Assembly: GCA_951406725.2 (NCBI GenBank)
Contig: OX597826.1
Coordinates: 83,018,001-83,082,000 of the forward strand
From: Octopus vulgaris
Lineage: Eukaryota
Length of the DNA stretch: 64,000 nucleotides
Reading direction: 5' to 3'
Every line of letters begins with the position of its first letter. Positions within the stretch are counted from its first letter, which is position 1. The notes below the pieces were generated by a model. The model was not told the origin of the DNA. It made no database searches and was given only the letters and a program-made list of their open reading frames with translations. Position numbers and translations under genes: made by a program. Positions 1 through 64,000 of the stretch are shown here, in pieces.

Positions 1-905
1 CAAACCAGTATATATGTATACATATATTATTAAAATTTAAATAAAAATAAATGATAGATATGTATGTATAAAACTACCCTAGTATAAGTAAATAAGTAAA
101 AAATAAATAGATAACAAATTAGATGACTTGATATGTATGTAAACATCTACACTTAAATAGGCAAATAAATAAATAATTAGAAGACTAAATGCAGAGATTG
201 ATAACAATACAATAAAATAAAAAATAAATAAAGTGAATATATATGTTATATTGTTGAAGGTAAATATGTATGGAAGGATAATTTAAAGTACAGATCCAGA
301 GGACTATAGATATAAACTAAATATATAAGGCTGGTAATATTTATAAAGCCAAATGTATGTAAATGAAAAAATGAAAAAAATGAAAAAATGAAAAAGGTTT
401 ATTAGTAAATAGCATAAGATACAAATTAAGGTGAGTACAAAGAAAGACCAAATATACAATAAAAACCTTCCAAATAAACACATACAAAAAACCTATATTC
501 TCAACCTAAACACACCAAACTCATAAAAGGCTCTCCTATATTACATATTATACAATAACATTACATTATCTAGAGCTAGGTATCTAACCAAGATATACAT
601 ATATACTATGCAATATACTATGCAATATTAGAAAACTTCAAAAATCACATATTACAAGGCAAATACCAAAATGAATATGTTATTTCCTGTCATATTACAT
701 TTACCTTAAAAAACAAACAAAAACCCACATACAAAAACAAGAAACAAATAATACTAGACACATCTATTATTATTATACAAATGTAGCTATAAAAATTATA
801 AAATTATAAATTTATAAGTTGTATACTTTAGAATTATAGAAGACCACAGGTATAGTTAGTTAAAGAAGGGAGTTAAAAAATTAATAATAGTGGAAGTGCT
901 AAGTT

Positions 906-1415
906 CTATTTGAATCTAGAAAAGGTGAACGGTAGCCTATGAATGCAAAAGAAGTTTTTTTCATTAATGTTGTTAATAATTTGCCGACCCGCTTTAATAA
1001 TGAAAAAAATTTCATTAATACATAGAGAGCATTTTTTATTTTTTCCATTATACACAGGTGCTGAAGTTAGTATTTTCCAGTTTAATCTAAAATCCAAGTT
1101 CTTACTTTTAAGTTCCCAAATATATGCACTAAGCCCTGTAGAGTACATTCTATTTTTATTTCTAAAAGTATATCTGTGATAATTCAATCTTTGTTTTATG
1201 CTATTCATAGTTGCCCCGATATACACCCTACTACTCAATTGTGTATCTACAGTGCATTGGTAAACTACCTCCTTCCTGAGGCATTGATTACCAAATACAC
1301 ATTTATTTTTGTTTCTGCAATTACAAAGATTAACAGAATGAGGAAATCTAAGATTGGTCTCCACCCCTATACTACCATTCACATTATAAGTGTTACAATT
1401 GTTATCATCATCCAA
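906..1415 (-). CDS. GIY-YIG endonuclease domain of a Penelope-like retroelement (Naiad-type), 5'-truncated fragment
   Basis: CNC-x5-C-x5-C followed by VVYQC...VYIG, KQRLNYH, LSAYIWELK, CSLC and C-x-H, the PLE GIY-YIG/Zn-finger layout. The N-terminal ATG is probably not native. Confidence 0.88.
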   Translation of the reverse strand: MDDDNNCNTYNVNGSIGVETNLRFPHSVNLCNCRNKNKCVFGNQCLRKEVVYQCTVDTQLSSRVYIGATMNSIKQRLNYHRYTFRNKNRMYSTGLSAYIWELKSKNLDFRLNWKILTSAPVYNGKNKKCSLCINEIFFIIKAGRQIINNINEKNFFCIHRLPFTFSRFK

Positions 1416-1500
1416 TTTTATATTTTACATCTTTATATTTTTATATTTATATGTATATGATTATATAATATTTTTCACAATTATAACAAATTTAATTTAA

Positions 1501-12100: not shown

Positions 12101-13072
12101 GTCGCCTTTTTAAACAAAACCTACTCGCTTCTTCTCCAACCAAACTTTGAGGATCTGAAAGAAAGTAAATGTCTACCCCGTCTATACCACAAACAATACC
12201 ATTGCGTGCTATTTAATATAGTTATGAAATGTTGTGAAACGACCCTTTGGCGTGTGAAAGATTCAACTAACAAGTTGACTCTATCACATCAAATTCGATA
12301 TGAGAAATAAAGATAACACAAGTTAATGAGTTCTTTTCTAGTAATTCTAAATTTTACTCTTTCTACACGTTTAGCAGTTCATCTAAATGTGTAGGAAAGA
12401 TAAACTGTTATTTGAAGTTTAAACAACAAAATAACAGAATTAGTTTTTAAAACATTCAGTCATAAACTTTTTTTATTTTATTCCATCAATTTAAACCAAT
12501 CATTCCTTTAGAAACTCCAACCATTTTCCAAAATGTACTATCTTCACCTGCTCTCACTTTTAACTTCTAAAATTAAGTTTGGAATGAAATGAAAATTAGA
12601 AATCGATTAAAATAAAATGGAGAAATGAAATAAAAGAAAAATGGAGGAGAAAAATAAAAGAGAAGGACAAATGTTTCTGTATTTCTTCAGAATGTCTTAA
12701 AGGATTAATATTTGTTCATAAGCGAGCAATAATTCTGTTCCGTGATTTCTTTTCCATAACAAATCAATCTGCTGCTGTTTAAACAGAAACGGATGTGATA
12801 TTATAGAAATCTCATTGTATACGGAAATAGCGTGCAGACTTACACAGGTTAATGGATGGTCTTAGTAAATGTCTTTATTCAAGTTGAAATTTTGAAAACG
12901 CCTTAAATTTTGATTTTAATGATTCCTTTATCGGTTAAAATGTGACAGAGACTAAAGATTTATAGTGTAATCAAATCTATTCACTCTCACTCTACCTCTC
13001 CTCTCTTTCTTTCTCTTTTTCTCTCTCTCTCTCCCTATCACTCTTTCTTCTTCTCTCTCCCGCTCCCTCTCT

Positions 13073-13112
<40 letters not shown>

Positions 13113-14250
13113 TTTTTTCTCTCATTCTTTTTCCACTTTCTCTCATTGTCTCTAAAATGATCTGTGGAAAGAGGCCTTGATTCTTATTTCAATTCAATAA
13201 CTGGTTCGAGCAATCAATTTCTCTGAAATTTAGTTGTTTTAATTGTATTGTAATATTTTCCGGCAAATTGCGTGAAGTAAAAGATAAAAAAAAATTTCAA
13301 ATTACAAATCTGAAAATAAAACTATGAAAAAGTATATCGATATGTTTCATTCACAAATACTCAAAATTAAAGAAAAACATGCTATATACCTCGCAAAAGA
13401 ATTGTCACTGTGTTAGAGAATTCCAATTAATACAACGGATAAGAAGCATATTATTAGCAGATCATCGAGGGCCTACTTCTTTATTAATTTTATAATCGCA
13501 TTTAGCGACCAACAACGTCACTGATAACAGGCTTGCAGCGAATCTTTCACTGGTTCATTGAATTTTATAATAGATTACTGAGGGAGAAATATCTCACGGA
13601 AATATTCTACATGCAAATTGAAATCTAGTGCGGCGGTCTCATACACGTAATATAGTAATCTTTTGAAAAGTGCAGATCAACTGATATTATCCAGCATCTG
13701 GATAATCGCTAACTCGGTTGTTAATATCTAATACACTGAATTAATTGAAAAGTTTTGACATAGGAAATGTAGCTTAAGAATGGAATGTAGCTTAAGAATG
13801 GCTTTTGTCTTAAAGTAACTGGAGGAAGCAACAGACTTGCTTTGGCCCTATTAAATAAGCTTAGCAAAACATTCTACTTGGCAAGACAGCGAGATTTTTG
13901 TCGCCACTAATTTGATTCATGATCTCAGTTAATCTTTTTTCAACTAATATTAAATGTGTGAAACCTTTAAGTATTGTCAATAATAGTGATCTTGGGAAAA
14001 AAAACTTGTAAAAAGACTGTTTTACTGCACTCGAAACCTAAACCACCCGATTCACACAGCATTTCATATCATATTTTTCCTAGTGAATTTCATTAACCAG
14101 ATATCTCTCTAAGCCCTTCGTTCGGTTTCCTCCCGTCATTTGCAGCTCCCTGCAAATCCTTCCTTTATGCTTTATTTTCCCAAATAAGGTAAAAATCGTT
14201 TTCAACCATTTACAGGTGTGTGTATGTGAATGTATGTATATATGTATGTA

Positions 14251-14282
<32 letters not shown>

Positions 14283-14939
14283 TATGTATGTATGATCTAC
14301 GAAGCTAAAGAATGTATAGAATGTTATTCTTGGAGTTGGGACCCCCCCAGCCCGGCTCCGAATGTTTGCTTTTGTCTTTATTGTGCAGATCCAACCTCTT
14401 ACACAATGCTAGCAATGTTATGGCTAGACGTATGCATTTATGTGTGTATTGTTAGAGTCGCTCTTGAGCACTAATAATAACATGTAATTTGGTACAACCG
14501 CTTATAATGACAAAACCATCAAACCTACCATTTTGGTGATGGGGTTGATTTTTCAAGTCCACTGAGAGAAGAAAACTAAAACCTGTTAAAGCACATAAAC
14601 TTATCAGAGTAATGTGATGGACATATGCACGTTTAAGATGACTGCGTGTGTGTTTTGTCAGGAGGCAGCAGCTTGTGTGCTTCGTTGACATGGAAGACTA
14701 TAGTGGAGAAAGACCGGATACACGGTGGAAAGGAGCATTGTTTGAAAACCAAGAATTGATGATCTCTGCATGACACTTGATTAAAAAGTAGAATGCTTCT
14801 TGGAAGAACAGACATCACTTCGAAACAGTGTCAGAATAAAACAAAACTGGTTCCGATCGATTCATTCAACTACTTCATAAATACTTTCTTTACGAATATT
14901 GTTTAAAGGAAGTAAGAGATCAAAACTGGACGCCATATT

Positions 14940-15520
14940 AAAATCAGAAGATTTCAAAAACGCTTAAGACATATTTATTGCGAGAAACTAATGTAAAGTT
15001 AATAACTATATGGTGATGTAAGTGACATTGATATTCTCCACAAGGCGGCAATGGCACAAATTCCCCCGACCGATGATTTAGAGGTCTTTTAAAAAGACCT
15101 TTGCAGGAATGCTCTAAAAGACACTCTGACACCCAGATGTTTCGTAACAACACCACCTTAAGCTGTATTCACACCCACCAAAGATAATGGACCAAACTTT
15201 TTTGGTAAAATGAAAGCAAATGTTTAGCGATTTGGGGAATGGATATGGCTGAAGAAGCTCAATTATTGTTGCTAAAAGAGGAAATTACAGTTGCTCAAAT
15301 ACGTTTACACTTGGAAAAGACAAATACTGAGTCTATCTTTCGTTAACCGGACGTCAGTGGACAGCATTACATGTGGGAAAAGACAAGCTGAAATAAGTGA
15401 ATGGTTTCCAGTGTCTTAGAAACTGAACAATAAATGCTGATAAAGTTTAGTCAGCAGGTAACAAACTGACCACGGAAACCAAATGTAAATTCCGATTTCT
15501 CAGAGCAACAGAAATGGGTT
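14940..15520 (+). pseudogene. Tc1-like transposase remnant
   Basis: KISKTLK (HTH region), WTKLFW*NESK (cf. WSDESK) and EWFPVS*KLN (cf. EWPxxSPDLN) in the expected order. No TIRs identified. Confidence 0.45.
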
Positions 15521-16172
15521 TGCTGGTGCGTGGTGTAGAAAGATGGACACTAACGAAAAGCTTACAAACTCTCTTGGACAGAGTGTGCACAAGATTACAT
15601 CAAGCATCATTCAATATGCCATGAAGCAAACATCTAAAATCAATGCCGAATCTATGTCTGGTAGCAAGAACGTCATGTCAAGTAAGATTAAACTTTATTG
15701 GCCACTGTTGGAGAAACAAAGATAAGGTGTTACATCCGTTATTGCTATGGAAACCTACTAATGACAAAAGATCGAGAGAAAGATGTCACATTATGTACAA
15801 GGCCAACTGAGATAAAATTCGACTCATTTCTACTATCGGTGATGTGAGGAAATGCGGCACGTGTGCAAATTTCTCTGAAGGGATGTGTGTGTGTGTGTGT
15901 GCATGCTTACAAGTGTGTGTGTGTGAATTTATGAGCATAAGTGTATGTGTGCATATTAATTATTTCATAATTCCTACACTATTTATAAAGTTACTTTATT
16001 TCAATGGTGCATTTAACTACATAGAATTTTAAAAGAAGTACGGCAACGTTTTGTAAAATGTTCATTTCCACGTACACTTGGTGTTGTGAATTAATCTATC
16101 CAACTATCTATTCATTTTTAGAAATAAAGGTAGATAAACGGATAGTTAGGTATGTGACACAGTGTGTGTGCT

Positions 16173-16203
<31 letters not shown>

Positions 16204-18659
16204 ATAAAATAGTTGCATTGTAGTGAACAGTTAGACATCTGTGCAAATAGGAAATTCGAAACATTAAATTTGTTCCAAAGTAATGGAACGAAAAATTAAG
16301 CAAAAGCAACGAAGAATATTTTATAGGAATCTTCAAATCTTGAATCTGAAACTAAACCGTAAATACTAACAAACGCTACAAAAAGCAATTATTATAATAA
16401 CATGGTACCAAAATTTCGTCGAAATTACATACAGAAAATGTTCCGTGTTTCCCATCAGATCTGTGTTAACCTGGAGTACATTTTTTTTTAAATTTTGAAA
16501 GGTCTTTGTGTAAGACAAATTGTAGTTTAGAATGCTCGGATCTCGATTTAAAAATTAAAGTTATGAGGAAAGAGAAACAATGCTCACAGCAGAATGTTAA
16601 GCTGCTGCACAACAGAGATTGATGTCCTGAATTTAGTCTTCCTGAGTAAATGTTATTGTTCTTAAAACTTTTAAATCTACAGAAAAAATTCTCTATTTAA
16701 TAGAAATAATAGAAAGCACACAAGAGTAAACTATTGTTAATCAAGTATAAATGTTGTCTGAGTAAAGGTAAAGTGAGTTCAAACTCTAGCACAAGGATGA
16801 AGTTTTAGGCGAAGGTAAGTTCATCAGTCTGAAAAATGTCGGTTTAATTCAGTTAAATGTCGGTTAAATATAACAGGTTTTCTCACCACAGAACTAAAAA
16901 AAAACATTATTTTGTAACACCGGCGAAGAGAAACATACTTTGCGATTGAGTGCAGATGAAAAAACCGATCTCAGTATTGAGACGTTATTGTATTGACTCC
17001 GAGAGAGTGATTGGCAAACTTCGATGAGATTTGAACTCAGTATACAAAAGAAGGTAAGTAAATATCAGGAAGGCAATATATCAGCTGCTCTAGCAATAAA
17101 TAAATAACACAAACGATCTAATTTAATCTTCGCCTCCTATCTCTATGTAATATGTCAGAATCTCGGTTGTTTGTAATGCATTGGTTGGTGCTGGAACTTC
17201 GATTTTGTGTGATTCTTTATTTTTCTCCTTTCCAATTGATCCAAGTTGTAGTTTCTAAGAAACATATATATTTCAGCGAGGGTGTCAAGAGTTAATCACC
17301 AATAATTATTGACACGAACTGACATTATTTCATCGTTCCACTTTCTGTTTCTGCACATGAACACCTAATCGTTATTATCAAACGAACGGATGAGATGATT
17401 CCCTTTAAGAGGATTAATGTGAGCCACGATTGCTTTGCATATCACTTGTAGAAATATTCAATGCTTCCTCTTTCTCTTCTGCCTGCAGCTTCTCATAGTT
17501 CTTTATTCCAAGTCAGCTTATGTTCGAGCGAGGAATGTTTTAAGATAAAACGAAAAATTCTTACGAATTCAGGTACGATGAATCCATAGAAGTTAAAATA
17601 AAATAAACGTCCCTTTATTTCGTTTTCTTCTTACATTCTGAATGAAATAAGACAAACTATTTATGGGTATTCAAAAGTTTTGGCCATTGCAAATTTTAAT
17701 GTACATTTGAAGAAATATATTAACCGCGCACATAAGATTTTTCACAATATCAAAATTCGAAGAGAATGGGTATGTAATACATTCAATTTACCAGGTATGT
17801 GTTAGAAGATTTTCCTTAATTATATCCAATGGATAGTAAAATTTTGTTGAACTCTAAGATTTGAAGTGAGAATTTAAAAGGGAAGGAAATACCGAAATGT
17901 TGTTAGACATGTGCCCTGGTACAATAGCTTTTGATGCTGCACCAATATTAAGATAGGAAATACAAATTCAATGAAACAATTTGATGCCAAGTTTACAAAG
18001 GATTTCTGACGAGGTGAGATAAAAATCTGTTCAATTGGCCCTCACTTGCATCATACAGAATGGTCAGACATAATATTCCGTGTGTGTATCAGACATCGGC
18101 ATTCTAGTGAACATGCATATACGCACGCTTACACACATATATATACATGCACGCATACATTCATACACACATAGAAACACACTCATTTATACGTGCATAC
18201 GCACACATACCTGCGCACATATATGTACGTACATACATACTTAAATACGGACATATGCACACATGCATACGAATGCGTGTCTGTGTTTGTGTGTGTGCGT
18301 ATGTATGTGTGTCTCCGTGCGCCCGCGCGCGTATGTTTGTCTATAGTTTTACATAACACAGAACTCAATGCAAAAATGTATTCGAATGCCGGATTAACAA
18401 GTTCCACTCTTTCCTTCGATCGTCTGGTAATAAAATTTGGAATAATGTTCATATCAAGTCTTATTGAAAATAAACATTCTTATCTATAATTATCCGAAAT
18501 TCATGGAGTGTAGTTGGATTAATATTAATAACCGGTGAGGCGAACAAACGGTGAAGCTGATGAAGCTGACAATTGTAACGCGATCGATGCTTAACACATC
18601 GTTTAAATACAGTTATTATTCTATCGCTTTCTGTCTCTGTCTTTATCTCCACATATTTG

Positions 18660-18671
18660 TGTGTGTATGTG

Positions 18672-18706
<35 letters not shown>

Positions 18707-18765
18707 GTATATGTATATATATATATATGTATATATATGTATATATATATGTATGTATATATATG

Positions 18766-18796
<31 letters not shown>

Positions 18797-18852
18797 GTAT
18801 ATATATATGTATATATGTATACATATATACATATATATATGTATATATGTAT

Positions 18853-18900
<48 letters not shown>

Positions 18901-18901
18901 A

Positions 18902-18973
<72 letters not shown>

Positions 18974-18975
18974 TT
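18660..18975. repeat. Long interrupted (TA)n/(TATG)n microsatellite
   Basis: Direct inspection. Confidence 0.95.
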
Positions 18976-19853
18976 GTTAATGTTGTGGAACAAAATGATC
19001 AAATTGCTGAATTCAATTTTAAGTTGGAAGTCTTATAAATATGATATTCGAGAAATTTACTTGCTCGGTCAAGTGTGCACTTCTCCGGTTTAAAAGTATG
19101 AAAGTGATTCGCAGCGGTGTCTGCTGGTGGTGGTCATGCATTAACGCTGGTCATATTAGAATATCTGAATCTCGCCGTGTGAAAATTACTTTGTTCATTT
19201 CATTTAAGATTGAAGTAGAATAATGTTTAATATAAAAAATTTTACGTCACATGACATTGCATTTTTTTATAATGCCTTTCCTTTAACTAATATTGTGGTA
19301 AAACTGCAACTAGTCTCCATTCTCTCTCGACTTCTGAACATGCTCTGCACGCGCTATGTATTGTTTCCCTCCAGCTGATTACGACGGAACATTGTGTTCT
19401 GCTGATGCAAGCGCTCGAAGTTATGTAGGCTTTTGCCTCACAGACAGGTTTCATCTCCTTCGCCGTACTCCAGTCTTAGATAACAAAGAAGAAGAAAACA
19501 GAACGAACTAGAATTCACTTAGGGATACATGCCCAGATTCGTCTTTGAGAATTCTAAGCGCGGCAGATAACAACCATCCACTAGAATTGTCTTTCTTTCA
19601 AATTTCCTGAGTTGCATTGTCGACGATCGAACGGAATCGCCATCTGAGTGACTTATACATGTTTATCTTACACGTACACAATTGTGGTTATATTCTCAGT
19701 AGTTTAATCGCCAGTATGTGTGTGTATATGTATGTGTGTGTGTGTATGTGTGTGTGTGTGTCCCCAAAATGTAAGCAAAACTCGAAAAAGCTCATTTTTC
19801 ATTGCACCAAATACAGGTCTTCACTATTCTATGTCTAACTAATCTACTCCAGT

Positions 19854-36284: not shown

Positions 36285-36811
36285 ATTATATTATTACTAT
36301 AATGCCTAGAGGTCCTAATATTGTTTCTCCCGGTTTCTTTAGATAGCAAATGATGGTAGATTTACGGCTGTTGGTTTAGCTATTGATGTTGCTATAACAC
36401 TAATTGGCAGAATTGGCTTGTTGTGTCTACTAATACAGGCTGTTTGATTTGACTGGTAGTTGACAGGCCTGATGGTGGATTGGTTGATTTTTGAGAGAAG
36501 CGTTGACAAGTTGAACATAGCAGAGCTAAAATATAGAAATCTATGAACAACATCTCAGAGTTTTAACAAATGTAAAGTAATCTAGTTTAAGACATTTTTG
36601 GGGAGCCGTTAAACAGCCATTCCATCATCATGACTGCTTACAGTAGCACTGAAAAATGATTGGGAGAGAAGTGGGGAGAGATAGAGGGCGAAGAGGAAGC
36701 AGGTTACCTCGCTGAAATTCCAGCGGGGTTACAAATTTACGTATAGAAATCTCGAATTTTAAGAGGAGCTATTTTTATTGTCTTTATCATTATTATCATT
36801 ATTATTATTAT

Positions 36812-36862
<51 letters not shown>

Positions 36863-36900
36863 GAGGAGGAGGAGGAGGAGGAGGAGGAGGAGGAGGAGTA

Positions 36901-39062
<2,162 letters not shown>

Positions 39063-39064
39063 AC

Positions 39065-39096
<32 letters not shown>

Positions 39097-39098
<2 letters not shown>

Positions 39099-39430
39099 GA
39101 GTGAGAGAGCAGTTCATGCCATCAAAGTGACACTGGGGTAAAATATACGAAGCCCAGTATACCCATCATGACTACCCGTCTGATAAGGGTACACCAAGCA
39201 CATGCATCACAACCATATGTGCGCGACATGGTGATCTCATATCAAGATAAACAGCACATGACCTTGCAGGTGGGGCCCAGTTAAAAATTTCTTCAGGTTG
39301 AGTAGCCCATCCCGCTCAAAAGGTCCCTGAATAAGGGTTGTTTAAGGATGTTGAAAGGACCACCCATGTTTCCAGGGGTGAATTATTCAAACCCCAAAGA
39401 ATCCCTCTCATCAAACCCCAAAGAATCCCT

Positions 39431-39434
<4 letters not shown>
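39097..39434 (-). mobile_element. Truncated copy of the (TAA)n-associated non-coding element
   Basis: Matches 36901-37215. Flanked by (TTA)n, with a 24-bp tandem duplication at the truncated end. Confidence 0.85.
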
Positions 39435-39519
<85 letters not shown>

Positions 39520-39546
39520 CATTATCACTATTATTATTATTATTAT

Positions 39547-39594
39547 TCAGTAGTTTTATTTTTATAGCGTGCTTTCACTTCACTACCGAGCGCC
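39547..39594 (-). mobile_element. Extreme 3'-terminal fragment of the Dong-like element
   Basis: tcagtagttttatttttatagcgtgctttcacttcactac is identical to 37601-37640 and embedded in (TTA)n. Confidence 0.8.
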
Positions 39595-39598
39595 ATTA

Positions 39599-39663
<65 letters not shown>

Positions 39664-39774
39664 TTCTTGTGCCCCAGCATGGCCACAGCTCGTGAACTGA
39701 AACTAAATCAAATCAAAATATTATTAGACTGTTTGAAAAGAAAAGCTCTTAACATCGGGCTACAACAAGTAAAC

Positions 39775-40100
39775 TTAGGTGCCAAGAACCCTCCTAAATA
39801 TCCTAGCTGTCCCCAATAACACTGTTTTCTGAAGCTGTATTAAACAGGGGTTTTATGCCTATTTTCTCTATCCATCTGTTGAAATATTTAGGGATAGTTC
39901 CCAATTCATCTATAACTATTAGGATACATTTTACCCGCTCTCTCCATATCTCCATAGTCTCTGTGATTCAATGACCAGGTCCTGGTACTTTGCTATTTTT
40001 TCTAAACCTCTCATATTGATTTTTTTTATCATTTGAAACTGTAAAGTCAATTATCTGGCACATTCTATTCTATTTATCTACTGCTGCTAAATCAGGTCTT
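39775..40100 (-). pseudogene. Degenerate R4/Dong-like RLE C-terminal fragment
   Basis: RPDLAAVDK...QIIDFTV...EKIAKYQDL...LQKTVLLGTARIFRRVLG. Adjacent to (TCA)n/(TTA)n. Confidence 0.75.
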
Positions 40101-40134
40101 ATCACCATCATCATCATCATCATCATCATCACCA

Positions 40135-40181
<47 letters not shown>

Positions 40182-41410
40182 GTTGTTGTTGTTGTTGTAC
40201 ACTACGGTCGAAGTTCAGATGTTATTAACTCGTTTCGAATAAAAGCATTCTATTAAATGAAATAACGGTTTTGTCACGAATTTCTTGTGTACATATATGT
40301 TCTAAAACCTAGTTTCCCCCTACAGAGGGTAACTAAAAAAGTAAGGCTGTTGTTTTGGTTTTTTTTTGGATAATATTTACTTTTCTTTTACGTCTCTAAC
40401 ATAGCTGCGAATATTTCGCGAAATACACATAGACAAAAAAAAAAGAAAAAGTAGAGAATGAAACGTATGATAAATAGAGAAGAAACCAGAAAAGAATAGC
40501 GTTTTAATTACGCCGCAAAATACTAAAGGTCATTAGGACAAACAGCAGAATTTTAACATCGAATTTAAATATAATCAAATGGAAATGTTGTCAACAACAA
40601 CAAAAGCAAGAGAAGAATTCATGCACACATGATGCCAAGTGTAAATATGAAGAACAGAACGCTATACACGGCAGACGTTTTCTTTTTCAAAAACACCTCA
40701 ATGTAGAGCATTTTGCTGAGAGGCCAAAGTAAAGCATCATTTGACGGACGATTCCAACCTAGCACAACCAATCGAAGAGGTGTGCGATAGAAGGTAAGCA
40801 AATTACTTGTGCTTTTCTAGGTTCACTGGACATTTTTATTTTATTTTTTTGCTTTGCTGAAGCAGGAGTTGGAAGATGGAGTTGACAATGAAAGCTCCAG
40901 CGTTTGTAGGAACAGAACCATCAACATGTATCAGATTTAAATTTGATAACGAGACGGAAGCAGAATCCAACCTTGTACACTGAACACCTTTCCATAAGCT
41001 GGATCCACACTACTTGGTCCATCGTCAGGGATACGGTGATGATGTTCACCCTTAGGTGCTAGTACAATATTGTGTGCCGGTGGCAGTAAGGGATTGGATG
41101 TGATCGAGATAGGCGTGCAAGTTACCATGACCTGGAGAGACGACGAAGCAATTCTCCTATGGAGGGTGATTAATAAAACACCTTAAAACTGAGCATCAAG
41201 GGTTGACAACCCAGCTGCCGCACTTGTGGTAACTAAACCTGTCTAAAGACTTTCTGCACAGAACAATTAAGAGAACGAAAGTAACAGCAAACGAATCGTG
41301 AGGGTTGTTGATTCCAGATACAAGTCAGTCAGTTATTAAAATTGCCCGGTCCTCAATACTAGAAGCGAAAACCGAGACCCCCCAAACACACACACTCTGT
41401 CTGTATGTGT

Positions 41411-52952: not shown

Positions 52953-53149
52953 AAGTCAGTCTACACGGCATACGGAGAAAAAGAAGGGACGTATGCATAG
53001 CGTACAAAGGTTTAAGGCAAAAAGGTGCGAGGATGAGGATAGAGATGTGACCCTCCCGATACAGGAAGACCTCTAGGAATAATCGAGGAACCCCACTGTC
53101 CGAGATTTCCCTGAGCAAGTGCCATCTCCAAATACTTCTCTCGGACTCA

Positions 53150-54100
53150 CAAGTCTACACTTAGAGAGGTACCATCTCTAAGGTACATGAATGGAAAGGT
53201 ATCACAACAGCAGACAACACTCACGAAGACTCATAAGTGTAAATCCCCTGGTAACCATGGAGTGCCAAATGTCTGGCTCGCATCGATCTCGTGCGAACAC
53301 GAAAAATTAGTCCAGTTATTCAATGGAATCATGGGAAAACACCTAGTTGGTTAGCAAGAAGTATTGCTTACCTACTCCCGGAGAATAAGGAAACCAAATT
53401 TCCCCGAAACTCTCAGCTCATGACTTGTCTACCTACCACTTATAAAATTATAACATCCATCCTCGTAGAGAAATCATACAAAATTTATGGAAGAGAACGA
53501 TATCTTCCCCACTGAATGAAAAGTGTACCGACTGGCTCATATGGATGCAAAGACCAACTCTCAATCAATCGCATGATCCTTGAGAACTGTTATAACAAAC
53601 GTAGGAATCTCAGTTCCGCATGGACTGATTATAAAAAGGTATTTGACAGGATACCGCTTTCACAAATCTTGAAATCGTTGGATGTCTTCAAAATTTCTCC
53701 TGTGATTTCAAAGTTCCTCAAATACAACATGTTAATGTGGGATACAAATCTCCATTATACCACTCTAATAAACTACTGACCACGAAAAAAATATATAGTA
53801 TGCTTGCTACCTGTTGCCTACGGAAACATGCCTTGACAGTATACCGCATTCATGGATCTTGAAATCGCTGGAAATCTTCAAACTTTCTCCTTCGATTTCA
53901 AACTTCCTGAAGCACAACACGTTAGTGTGGAATACGAATCTCCAATTATACCACTTTAATGGAATACTGACCACAAAAATATATAAATATCAACTGCGGC
54001 TTTTACCAAGGTGACTCACTTTCATCTTTAATTTTTTTGCATAGCCCCATTACCTCTTACGAATGAACTTAACAGAACGGGCTATGGGCACAAAATAAGT
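53150..54100 (+). pseudogene. R4/Dong-like reverse transcriptase remnant with internal duplication
   Basis: KSPGNHG, TCLPTTYKIITSI, GCKDQLSIN, AWTDYKKVFDRIP and GFYQGDSLS (RT domains 0-4). Frameshifted. Confidence 0.85.
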
Positions 54101-54142
54101 CGTCAATTTTTTTTTTGTTATGTATAGCCCTAGTACCCATTT

Positions 54143-60105: not shown

Positions 60106-60774
60106 ATATGTGTGTATGTGTGTGAGTGTGTATGCGTGAGTGTTTGTGTGTGTGAATGTGTGTGTGCCTGTATGTGTGTGTGTGTGTCTGTATGTACTTC
60201 TATGATTTTTTTTTTCTCTGTGTGAAAACAAATCTCTATATTTTCGTAAGGATTTTTCTATCCTTGTGTGTGTGTGTGAATTCTCAATTTTCAATAATTT
60301 ATTATTGAAAAACAGTCAAAACTTGTGGAAAATTAAAACGAAGCACAATTAAGCTTTAATTATATTTGAGTACTATTCTTAATGATTATTTTACTCATTT
60401 ATCATTTATATAATTAATATTTTTCTTCATTAAAACGTTTATCCATTTAAATAATTTCAGTTACATCTGTGTATTTATGGAACGGTACTACAAAATCATA
60501 TGCAAATTATACTATACATGTGTGCATCTAAATAACTCGTTATGCACGACATATGCACAATTACATGCTTGAACAAATGTGTACATATACAAGTATGCAT
60601 ATTATATATGTCAGTTCACCCTTCGTGCTACTGGCAATATGTGACCCCGTAGAACCAGTTATATGGTCGATCCATCGGCGACTAAACTGACACCACTACC
60701 AAACCTACTTAGAAGAGAAGCTTTTGCTGGACACCCTCCAGAATTACATTTCTGTCAAAGGGTGGATGAACTGA

Positions 60775-61504
60775 GTATAGTCAACGGCCATCCAATACTG
60801 GAGGACTAACCATAGCAATGAGGAAGTGTCCCCGCCGTGCCGCAACTGCAATAGAGTGGATGAAACCATTGCCCATATCACGAACGAATGCCGTAGACTT
60901 GCCAAAAATCACTACACGTTGTGGCAACACGATCAGGTACCGAAAGTGCTACACTGAAAACTGTGCTAAGGAGTGGGGGCTAAAGAGAAGCAAGACGTGG
61001 TTTGAGAACAAAGCGAAGAGTGGCGGAGTCGGAGACTAGCAAACTCCCCTGGGATTTCTCAATCCAAGCAGATCGGGTGCTAGAACATAACAGATTGGAC
61101 CCAGTGGTGGTGGACAAGGTACATCACATATGCTATATAGATGACGTTGCATGACCCTTTGACCCAGGAATATTCAAGACGAAAGGCGAAAAAATAGATT
61201 GATACAACCCACTTAAGTACGAAATAGCCCGATTATGGGAAATGAAGAAGGTGAAGATAGTGCCAATTATTGTTGGGTCCTTAGGAACAGTATCAGAAGG
61301 CATCAAAAGGAATATAAATGAAATTGGAATAGAGTGCCAAGTAGAACTGTTACAAAAGGTTTGCCTCGTTGGCACCGCCAGAATAATCAGGAAAATGTTA
61401 GATAGCTGAAAAGAACAGATAGCATGATACTGTAGGCTGGAAGTAGCAGGACCGTTACGCATGCAGGACTGCAAGAGCTTCAACAAAGCCTGTGATAAAG
61501 AGAA
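60775..61504 (+). pseudogene. R4/Dong-like RLE fragment ending at (TGA)n
   Basis: CRNCNRVDETIAHITNEC, HDQV..VLH*KLC, WDFSIQADR, DDVA*PFD, VKIVPIIVGSLGT, LQKVCLVGTARIIRK. (TGA)n at 61505-61607. Confidence 0.85.
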
Positions 61505-61607
<103 letters not shown>

Positions 61608-61934
61608 GTGATTGTAGGATCTCTAGGAATGATACAAAAAGGTACTGAAACCTATTTGAAAATGATACCAGGCTTACCATCCCTACGGGAAGTGCAAAAT
61701 GTCGTATTAACTGGAACGGCTCATGTACTGAGAAGAGCATTATCGCTGTGAAAACAACATCCATCCATGAATTTATTTATTTATTAATTTTTAAATACAT
61801 ATTTTACCTGTGAATTTGCGCGTGCAATCTAAGAATGCATACAATGAGCTTCTCTGCCCTAGGTGTATGGAAAACACTCGGCGAGAAACGTAAGAAAATT
61901 TGAAGAAAGAAGGAAAAAAAAAATTTTTTTTTAA
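61608..61934 (+). mobile_element. Short 3' fragment of a Dong-like element
   Basis: VIVGSLGMIQKG...IPGLPSLREVQNVVLTGTAHVLRRALSL*, then UTR and (TAA)n at 61935-62097. Confidence 0.85.
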
Positions 61935-62097
<163 letters not shown>

Positions 62098-62579
62098 GTG
62101 GTATCATGTACATTGTTTTGTCTTTGTATAAAATATTCTGCTCAATACCACAGCTTTGCTTGTCAGTTGTTTGACTTTAACCAGTTGACCATGTCCTTTA
62201 GTGGCTGACGATATGTGCATCTCTGATCACGAGCAGAAGTAGTGGAGAGCATCATAGCCGTGTGTTGAAAAGAATTCTTAGAGGTTTGGATAATTCGCCT
62301 TTGGAAACATGGGTGGTTTATTCAACATCCTTAAACAATCATTATTCAGGGACCTTTTGAGCGGGGTAGGCTACTCGACCAGAAGAAAATTCTAAGTGGG
62401 CCCCACCTGCAAGGTCATGAGTTATTTATCTTGATATGAGATCACCATGTCATGCACATATGGTTGTGATGCATGTGTCTGGTGTACCCTTATCAGACGG
62501 GAAGCCATGATGGGTATATTGGGCTTCGCATATTTTACCCCACTGTCACTTTGATAGCATGCACTACATTCTCACTCAA
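62098..62579 (+). mobile_element. Third copy of the (TAA)n-associated non-coding element
   Basis: Reverse complement of ~36901-37400. Ends ...ctcactcaa(taa)n. Confidence 0.85.
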
Positions 62580-62603
62580 TAATAATAATAATAATAATAA
62601 TAA

Positions 62604-62621
62604 TAACCCTAACCCTAACCC
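62604..62621 (-). repeat. Interstitial telomeric repeat (TTAGGG)3
   Basis: taaccctaaccctaaccc between (TAA)n and a retroelement 5' junction. Confidence 0.85.
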
Positions 62622-63263
62622 TACCAGGCCAACATATTAGAGAACAGCAGTAGCCCAACATGTCGTGTATGTCAACAACAAAATGAAACCATTGATCATG
62701 TTGCCTCCAAGTGCAATCTTCTTGCGCCCACAGAGTATCTCAACAGGCATGATAGAGCTGCACAATATATTCACTGGGTAATTTGCAGAAGCCTGGACTT
62801 GCCCCATGATAAAACTGGTGGGAACACAAACTACCTCCAGTGCTTGAAAATGACCACATCTCACTCCTCTGGAACTTCACCATTCAAACTGACAGAAAGA
62901 TAGATGCGAATAGGCCAGACATCATAGTAAAAGGCTTCAGACAAAAAACATGCCTCCTCATTGATATGACTGTCCCAATCGATATAAACGTATCTGTCAA
63001 GACCTACCAGAAACTGAGCAAATATAAAGATCTGGAAATAGAAATCAGCAAAATGTGGAACCTGAAGACTAAAACAATACCTGTTGTCATAGGCGCCATG
63101 GGAATAATAGCAAAAGTGGCTGATAGCTACCTAACTCAGATACCAGGAAACCCAAAAATGGCAGAAATTCAAAAGATAGTGCTCATGGGAACTGCTCATA
63201 TCCTACGCAAAATACTTTCTTTGTAATCTCAAGTTTTAAAACAAACATAATTTTTGTATGGTT
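62622..63263 (+). mobile_element. 5'-truncated Dong-like element (zinc knuckle + RLE)
   Basis: YQANIL...CRVCQQQNETIDHVASKC...RHDRAAQYIHW, frameshift, then ORF 62840-63226 WNFTIQTD...RPDII...LIDMTVP...KLSKYKDL...GTAHILRK. Confidence 0.92.
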
Positions 63264-63915
63264 AAGGAAGAGATGAAAAGCCCAGAAGAAGAGCAAAGAA
63301 GATTGGCTAGAAAAACCGATGCATGGCCGATACCCATGTAGAGTGAACAAACCAGACGTAGAAAAACGAGACACTCATGTATGGATTAAGAACTCAGGAC
63401 TGAAGGCCGAAACCGAAGGTTTTATCATAGCAGCACAAGATCAAAGCTTGGCAACCAGGGCTTACCACAACAAAATAATGAACGATGGCACTGACCCGAA
63501 ATGCAGAATGTGCCATGGGCAGGATGAAACAGTGGACCACATCTTAACTGGATGCCCAGCACTTGCAAAAGCTGAATATATTCATAGACACGATAGAGTA
63601 GCGCAATATATCCATTGGAAGATATGTAAACACTACCAGCTTCCAACTTCAGAAAGATGGTACCAGCATAAACCTGAAGCTGTGACTGGAAAAGATGATG
63701 TAACAGTAATCTGGGACATGCCAACCAACAGCGATAAAGAAACCAAGGCAAACAGGCCGGACATAATCATCAAAGATGTGAAGAATAAAAAATGCTTACT
63801 GACATATGTGACAGTACCATCAGAGAGAAGTGTGTCTATTAAAGAAATTGAGAAGTTATTTAAGTACAAAAACCTAGAAATAGAAGTGACCAAGATGTGA
63901 GGAATTAAAAGCAGC
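63264..63915 (+). mobile_element. Dong-like fragment (zinc knuckle + RLE)
   Basis: ORF 63319-63900: MHGRY, GLKAETEGFIIAAQDQ, CRMC...H...C, RHDRVAQYIHW, RPDIIIKD, EKLFKYKNL. Confidence 0.92.
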
Positions 63916-64000
63916 ACAGCACCAGCGGCGACTCCTAGTCTAACCCAGAGACCTCAAGAGTCAACAAGTTAGAAGTTCATGTTGGTGTTATGTCTAGGGT

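What the first reader, a model, noticed from the sequence alone, without database searches (positions are those of the whole stretch)
62580..62640. Telomeric repeats exactly at the 5' truncation junction of a Dong-like insertion, in telomerase polarity
The sequence reads (TAA)n-(TAACCC)3-TACCAGGCC, where TACCAGGCC (YQA) starts the truncated element. On the minus strand, which is the first-strand cDNA in target-primed reverse transcription, it reads ...GGCCTGGTA-GGGTTAGGGTTAGGGTTA-TTATTA. TTAGGG units are thus appended to the cDNA 3' end, which itself resembles a telomeric primer, and join the target via TTA microhomology. Inference: telomerase, or a template jump onto telomerase RNA or C-rich telomeric RNA, healed the aborted cDNA. 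This would be a route to interstitial telomeric repeats.
Basis: partly seen in the sequence, partly recalled or inferred. Interest (0 to 1): 0.7.

Follow-up and report, generated by a model that had tools for sequence, protein, structure and literature searches.

The report
Telomere repeats at a retrotransposon junction
In a probable octopus genome, three perfect telomere repeats sit exactly between a TAA repeat and the cut-off start of an old jumping-gene copy; telomerase likely wrote them while a DNA end was being sealed, but this one site cannot show whether that happened during the jump itself, before it or after it.

Summary
(TAA)8-(TAACCC)3 runs straight into a 5'-truncated Dong/R4-like LINE whose homology to its family starts exactly at 62622. 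The family encodes CLPTRN there, so the repeats are not element sequence. The tract is the only telomeric array in the window and its only primitive hexamer array of 18 bp or more. It has the marks of a short interstitial telomeric sequence (ITS) added by telomerase: 2-3 nt in register on the element side and TTA microhomology on the other. What is not shown is that the substrate was the aborted cDNA. The polarity and the microhomology are also predicted by a later break inside the element, by insertion into an existing ITS, or by the tract priming the upstream element's TAA tail. Only 1 of 7 TAA-to-element 5' junctions in the window carries it. In other organisms TAA arrays abut telomeric repeats in both polarities (5 and 5 loci), none with a Dong ORF. 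No genome was held and the read tool skipped the junction, so enrichment and read support are untested. Verdict: a real short ITS at a LINE junction; telomerase about 55%; cDNA healing during retrotransposition about 30%.

The parts
62096..62579 (+). B1: 5'-truncated copy of a non-coding interspersed repeat that ends in a TAA tail (likely a SINE or long 3' UTR mobilised by Dong-like elements; identity not established)
   Evidence: Two more copies at 36901-37401 and 39097-39416, 86-88% identical; no open frame in the three sense frames of the 36901 copy; no Rfam match
62580..62606 (+). (TAA)9: 3' tail of B1 and/or target of element C; the last TAA is shared with the telomeric tract (TTA microhomology on the - strand)
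62604..62623 (-). Perfect telomeric tract, (TAACCC)3TA on +, G-rich on -; about 14-15 nt belong to neither flank
62621..62623 (-). In-register seed: TA is certainly shared by element and repeat; the C at 62621 is probably element-derived too (AAC codon of Asn), giving TAG-3' on the - strand
   Evidence: Family protein has N before YQAN; loose-end consensus of 5 contigs in run X1 has C at this place, agreement 0.78; weak
62622..63263 (+). Element C: 5'-truncated Dong/R4-like LINE (CCHC knuckle, RHD, RPD..D..K endonuclease, stop at 63224-63226, start of 3' UTR); old copy with a 1-nt deletion near 62810; its own 3' tail is not visible
63264..63942 (+). Element D: a different Dong-like family joined to C's 3' UTR without a TAA array, itself breaking off near 63925-63942
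   Evidence: Family C continues with other sequence after 63263 in 14, 16 and 21 contigs of three runs; D protein hits
61937..62095 (+). (TAA)53 upstream of B1, following another Dong-like 3' end (61608-61936); no telomeric remnant here

Best explanation
The tract is a short interstitial telomeric sequence that telomerase likely added to the free 3' end of the element's minus strand at its 5' boundary, and whose new TTA end was then likely joined to the TAA array. Shown: the position, perfection and polarity of the tract, the element boundary, and that the tract is not element-coded. Inferred: (1) a minus-strand end ...GGTAG-3' paired with the telomerase template through 2-3 nt; (2) about 2.5 repeats were added; (3) the GGGTTA-3' end either annealed to the TAA strand and primed fill-in, or primed reverse transcription on the (UAA)n tail of a B-family RNA. 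The timing is open. The end may have been an aborted first-strand cDNA (a little over half of this explanation's weight) or a later double-strand break in an already integrated copy with loss of its upstream part. The product is an inert scar.
For: Only telomeric array and longest primitive hexamer array in 64 kb. The other 9 hexamer arrays are variants of adjacent mono-, di- or trinucleotide runs, whereas TAACCC is three substitutions from TAATAA (sequence). Homology starts exactly after the tract and the family has CLPTRN upstream. In-register bases at the seed end are typical of telomerase-inserted ITS: 75-80% of loci have 1 or more, 33-40% have 3 or more (PMC2246262 Table 4; horse 78% and 35%, PMC7215372). 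TTAGGG is the cephalopod motif cited in PMC13218726. A mollusc telomerase has an 8-nt template and low processivity (PMC8480181), which would fit short seeds and short tracts (inference). Truncated R2 cDNA ends are handled by host repair, including CST-Pol-alpha-primase (review PMC13586686).
Against: One site only. 1 of 7 TAA-to-element 5' junctions in the window has it, and 0 of 2 such junctions in outside Dong-like loci (L144, L146). In metagenome contigs, 10 distinct loci with (TAA)4+ next to telomeric repeats split 5 to 5 by polarity, and none had a Dong hit; these are other organisms. A 3-nt register is common by chance (10.8%), and R2-type truncated junctions carry 1-5 nt microhomology without any telomerase (PMC2718515). 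C's 3' end and target remnant cannot be seen because D interrupts it. The junction was not seen in independent reads.
Confidence: 0.55

Rival explanations
1. Existing ITS as target: a short ITS already lay in or beside the TAA array, the TAA-targeting element inserted there, and its cDNA end annealed to the cut target through CTA microhomology, as truncated R2 copies do.
For: Predicts the same polarity and microhomology (inference; PMC2718515). TAA arrays abut telomeric repeats without Dong ORFs elsewhere (10 distinct loci). In L016 a LINE-like 3' end with a (TAA)4 tail is followed by TAACCC repeats in this same polarity. REL-type elements flanked by target TAACCC are known in fungi (PMC12857005).
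Against: 0 of the other 16 TAA arrays in the window hold an ITS, so such targets are rare. No telomeric remnant lies upstream of B1.
Confidence: 0.2
2. No telomerase: the RT added a few non-templated G's, or a repair polymerase copied a few bases, creating one TAACCC unit at the junction that then expanded by slippage; or the RT jumped onto a C-rich telomeric RNA.
For: R2-like RTs add non-templated bases and jump templates (PMC2718515, PMC13586686). A 24-bp tandem duplication sits at another 5' junction in this window (39387-39435). The genome is rich in microsatellites.
Against: The unit is exactly the telomeric one among 350 primitive hexamer classes, and no other primitive hexamer array in the window reaches 3 copies. 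The family sequence is not telomere-like beyond 2-3 nt.
Confidence: 0.15
3. Assembly artefact: a chimeric join across the TAA or telomeric repeat.
For: The window holds a 100-N scaffold gap, the site lies between high-copy repeats, and no independent read was seen across it.
Against: The whole repeat tract is 42 bp, shorter than a read. The repeat-to-element join is not inside a repeat (sequence).
Confidence: 0.07

Closest known systems
Short interstitial telomeric sequences inserted by telomerase at double-strand breaks (Nergadze et al. 2007, PMC2246262; Santagostino et al. 2020, PMC7215372)
   Same: Few exact hexamers, bases in register at the seed end; flank deletion in about half of loci; ITS inside repetitive elements are on record (16 of the 25 primate loci analysed).
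   Different: Described in mammals from empty orthologous sites. Here no empty site is available, the host is a mollusc, and the seed end coincides with a LINE 5' truncation, so the substrate could be a cDNA.
5' junctions of truncated R2/R1 insertions (Stage and Eickbush 2009, PMC2718515)
   Same: 1-5 nt microhomology or extra bases at the truncated 5' junction of an REL-type LINE.
   Different: Extra bases there are short and unassigned. Drosophila lacks telomerase (PMC5537684 abstract), and no telomeric fill was seen in the passages read.
Telomere-associated retroelements: Athena/Coprina PLEs (PMC8557442), FoTeR/MoTeR REL elements (PMC12857005), endonuclease-independent L1 at telomeres (PMC4700185 section 17)
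   Same: TAACCC repeats on the element's sense strand next to element ends; G-rich 3' ends used as RT primers.
   Different: Those elements target chromosome ends or carry the repeats themselves. This family sits in TAA arrays throughout the window and does not encode the repeat.
Dong (R4 clade) LINEs
   Same: CCHC plus REL C-terminus, TAA tails and targets (PMC3812793 passage); abundant and recently active in Octopus vulgaris (PMC13282606).
   Different: RT phylogeny against named Dong/R4 sequences was not run; this copy is truncated and frameshifted.

Membership tests
Telomerase-inserted short ITS | Exact tandem copies of the host telomeric unit at an internal site | tested here: met
   20 bp perfect, flanked by kb of non-telomeric DNA; motif per PMC13218726; host genus inferred
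Telomerase-inserted short ITS | Bases in register at the seed 3' end | tested here: inconclusive
   2 nt certain, 3 nt probable; a 3-nt register arises at 10.8% of positions by chance
Telomerase-inserted short ITS | Empty orthologous or allelic site showing one-step insertion | not testable with these tools
   No genome held; junction skipped by read laying
TERC-ITS (telomerase RNA copied beyond the template) | Telomerase-RNA-derived bases beside the repeats | tested here: not met
   No unassigned bases besides the hexamers (sequence); no Rfam match in 60500-64000 at E 0.1
Dong/R4 LINE (element C) | C-terminal CCHC knuckle and restriction-like endonuclease after an RT in one ORF | tested here: met
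   C-x2-C-x8-H-x4-C, RHD and RPD..D..K in the translation; 1,200-aa relatives carry RVT_1; profile and a full-length relative match R2 structures at E 1.3e-4 and 6e-27
Dong/R4 LINE (element C) | TAA target and TAA 3' tail | tested here: inconclusive
   TAA array 15 bp upstream; relatives in the window end in TAA; C's own 3' end is not visible
Dong/R4 LINE (element C) | RT groups with Dong/R4 in a tree | not tested
   No named Dong or R4 reference was held; the clade label rests on motifs, target and recall
Telomere-targeting retroelements (Athena, MoTeR/FoTeR, TRAS/SART) | Telomeric repeats as regular target or as part of the element | tested here: not met
   1 of 7 TAA-linked 5' junctions in the window; family protein is continuous through this position

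The most novel reading that the evidence does not exclude
Telomerase extends the 3' end of aborted first-strand cDNAs of Dong/R4 LINEs during target-primed reverse transcription, and the new GGGTTA end completes the insertion by pairing with the TAA target, or by priming a template jump onto the UAA tail of another element RNA. TAA-targeting LINEs would then be a recurring source of interstitial telomeric repeats, and telomerase a host factor of retrotransposon 5' joining.
Probability: 0.3. Interest if true: 0.7.

Novelty: new variant of a known kind. Interest (0 to 1): 0.36.

Why it matters
How the 5' end of a non-LTR insertion is joined is still being worked out, and host repair pathways including the telomere-associated CST-Pol-alpha-primase are implicated (review PMC13586686). 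If telomerase acts on the cDNA end, it is a further pathway, a new source of ITS and a side product to look for in R2-based gene insertion in telomerase-positive cells. Octopus genomes, with very many Dong copies in TAA arrays, make this countable. If the ITS came before or after the insertion, the site is an ordinary repair scar.

Tried and rejected
Whole-genome junction survey: no genome is held. Read support: 24 runs were listed and 4 laid. X24 gave 0 reads. Three contig sets gave 19,742, 15,852 and 12,761 records, but 62570-62632 was skipped, so the junction is neither confirmed nor denied. Viral collection: junction pattern 0 hits; element protein and alignment 0 relatives; a 14-mer gave 120 loci, 0 of them with a Dong hit. 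Prokaryote genomes: 4 contaminating Dong-like loci, 2 with a visible TAA junction, neither telomeric. Screen of 288 fetched proteins for translated telomeric repeats: 1 NPNP near the start of a full-length protein, no junction. Pfam on 59 ORFs from the 10 distinct metagenome loci: 3 hits, one a zf-RVT about 1.2 kb away on the opposite strand. 'Repeats are element consensus' rejected. 'Template jump onto telomerase RNA alone' disfavoured: several repeats and no RNA flank. 'Ordinary TAA variant' disfavoured: the interruptions shown in the first 200 of 210 hits are single-base changes. Earlier scan notes: nothing for this genome, this sequence or four word searches; one search gave unrelated ITS cases.

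Full report
Observation. No other tandem TAACCC or GGGTTA array exists in the window, and 1 of 17 TAA/TTA arrays of four or more units touches one. An 18-mer search with three mismatches found only this site (3 overlapping hits, 0.05 expected). Among 10 primitive hexamer arrays of 15 bp or more it is the only one of 18 bp or more; the other nine are variants of neighbouring simple runs. The tract is real in the assembly and not a chance match. The scan covers very many windows, so some selection for striking cases applies.

The element. Downstream, two frames give YQAN..CRVC..H..C..RHD and ..RPD..D..K.., ending at 63226. Relatives are 1,200-aa RT proteins from marine invertebrates, and the profile and a full-length relative match solved R2 proteins. 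The closest named relative is an Octopus bimaculoides protein, 85% identical, so the host is probably an octopus; the species was not determined. A member of that cluster, P0125, reads CLPTRN before YQAN and aligns from exactly 62622, whereas the tract reads P*P*P in that frame. The repeats are therefore not element sequence. Contigs from three public runs show a very high-copy family (12,761-19,742 records laid, most 90-99% alike), an extra A after 62810 in 48-50 contigs, and a different continuation after 63263. Copy C is thus old, frameshifted, and interrupted in its 3' UTR by a second family, D. Its own tail and target remnant are not visible. The label Dong/R4 rests on motifs and TAA targeting (PMC3812793, passage) and on the abundance of Dong-R4 in Octopus (PMC13282606, PMC8967140, passages); no tree was built.

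The left flank. The TAA run is the tail of a non-coding repeat, B1 (62096-62579), with two more copies in the window. The tract therefore lies between a 3' tail and a 5' truncation and can belong to either junction. I count seven places where a TAA array precedes a truncated element on its sense strand (62096, 62622, about 40100, 39600, 39434, 39066, 37452). Only one has telomeric repeats; one has a 24-bp tandem duplication.

Mechanism. On the - strand the element ends in GGTA or GGTAG, followed by about 2.5 TTAGGG units whose last TTA merges into (TTA)n. The base at 62621 is probably the element's own (Asn codon; weak loose-end consensus), which would put TAG in register. These are the marks of telomerase-inserted short ITS in mammals: in-register bases at 75-80% of loci, deletions at about half, and cases inside repetitive elements (PMC2246262; PMC7215372). 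TTAGGG is the cephalopod motif cited in PMC13218726, and a mollusc telomerase has a short template and low processivity (PMC8480181). I put telomerase acting on this end at about 0.55.

First, polarity does not discriminate: an element that inserts with TAA on its sense strand would show TAACCC on that strand if it had inserted into an existing ITS, and a later break healed on the right-hand end gives the same (inference). Second, 1-5 nt of microhomology is normal at truncated R2 junctions (PMC2718515), and a 3-nt telomeric register occurs at 10.8% of positions of this element (TAG alone at 1.1%). Third, doubly truncated Dong fragments occur nearby (53133-54115, and D), so later breaks or non-standard joins do happen here. 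Fourth, a scan of metagenome contigs gave 23 loci, 14 truly telomeric and 10 distinct: 5 in the window's polarity and 5 in the opposite one, none with a tblastn hit to the long Dong relatives (9 loci with mixed G/C letters were set aside). One of them, L016, has a LINE-like C-terminus and a (TAA)4 tail followed by TAACCC repeats in this polarity, with only 138 bp seen downstream (the RTE-like reading is recalled, the Atlas hit is a lead). These are other organisms, so they weaken rather than refute.

Untested. No genome was held, and the read tool skipped 62570-62632. Enrichment, the 3' junction, an empty allele and read support all remain open.

Literature. Six searches aimed at this question showed no paper reporting telomerase addition to a LINE cDNA at an internal 5' junction; four more were for background. 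The library lacks most subscription journals, so this is not proof of novelty; the primary papers on Athena elements, L1 at telomeres and R2 repair pathways were seen only through reviews. Seen as passages: PMC11371274, PMC7215372, PMC5110952, PMC13282606 (also one supplement search), PMC8967140, PMC2246262, PMC8557442, PMC2718515, PMC13586686, 10.1101/2024.12.14.628481, PMC12857005, PMC3812793, PMC8480181, PMC13218726; PMC4700185 as passages and section 17; PMC5537684 as listing and abstract start only. The locus tables in the supplements of PMC2246262 and PMC7215372 were not read and may hold ITS at LINE 5' ends.

Verdict. A real, short ITS at a LINE junction, most likely telomerase-made. 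Weights: cDNA healing during retrotransposition about 0.30, later break about 0.25, existing ITS as target 0.20, slippage or RT-made 0.15, artefact 0.07. A variant of a known kind, cheap to settle with one genome-wide count; interest 0.36.

Noticed in passing
window 39387-39435 (- strand): The 5'-most 24 bp of a truncated B copy are tandemly duplicated right at its junction with a TAA array, like slip-back during second-strand priming.
   Followed up: partly
window 36800-40200 (- strand): A train of at least five nested Dong-like and B-family pieces, most separated by TAA arrays; one B tail runs into a compound (CTC)n(CTA)n(TAA)n microsatellite.
   Followed up: partly
window 53133-54115: Internal RT fragment of a Dong-like element with neither end, no TAA flank and an apparent internal duplication of about 200 bp.
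   Followed up: no
window 63263-64000: C is joined to D without a TAA array, and D breaks off near 63925-63942 into unassigned sequence; nested insertion or template switching are both possible.
   Followed up: partly
window 906-1424 (- strand): 172-aa open frame with a VYIG motif, recalled as resembling the GIY-YIG endonuclease of Penelope elements; not tested.
   Followed up: no
L016:112-138 and upstream ORF 212-832 (-): LINE-like 3' end with a (TAA)4 tail followed directly by TAACCC repeats; a candidate for reverse transcription primed on a telomerase-extended or ITS end.
   Followed up: partly
L006:1501-1530 (-): A TAA array holds (TAACCC)7, about 22 bp of other sequence and an A-run before TAA resumes, which could be a very short truncated insertion with telomeric repeats at its 5' side.
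   Followed up: no
L144-L146: A cyanobacterial MAG holds three short contigs of animal-type Dong-like LINE DNA, probably host contamination.
   Followed up: no
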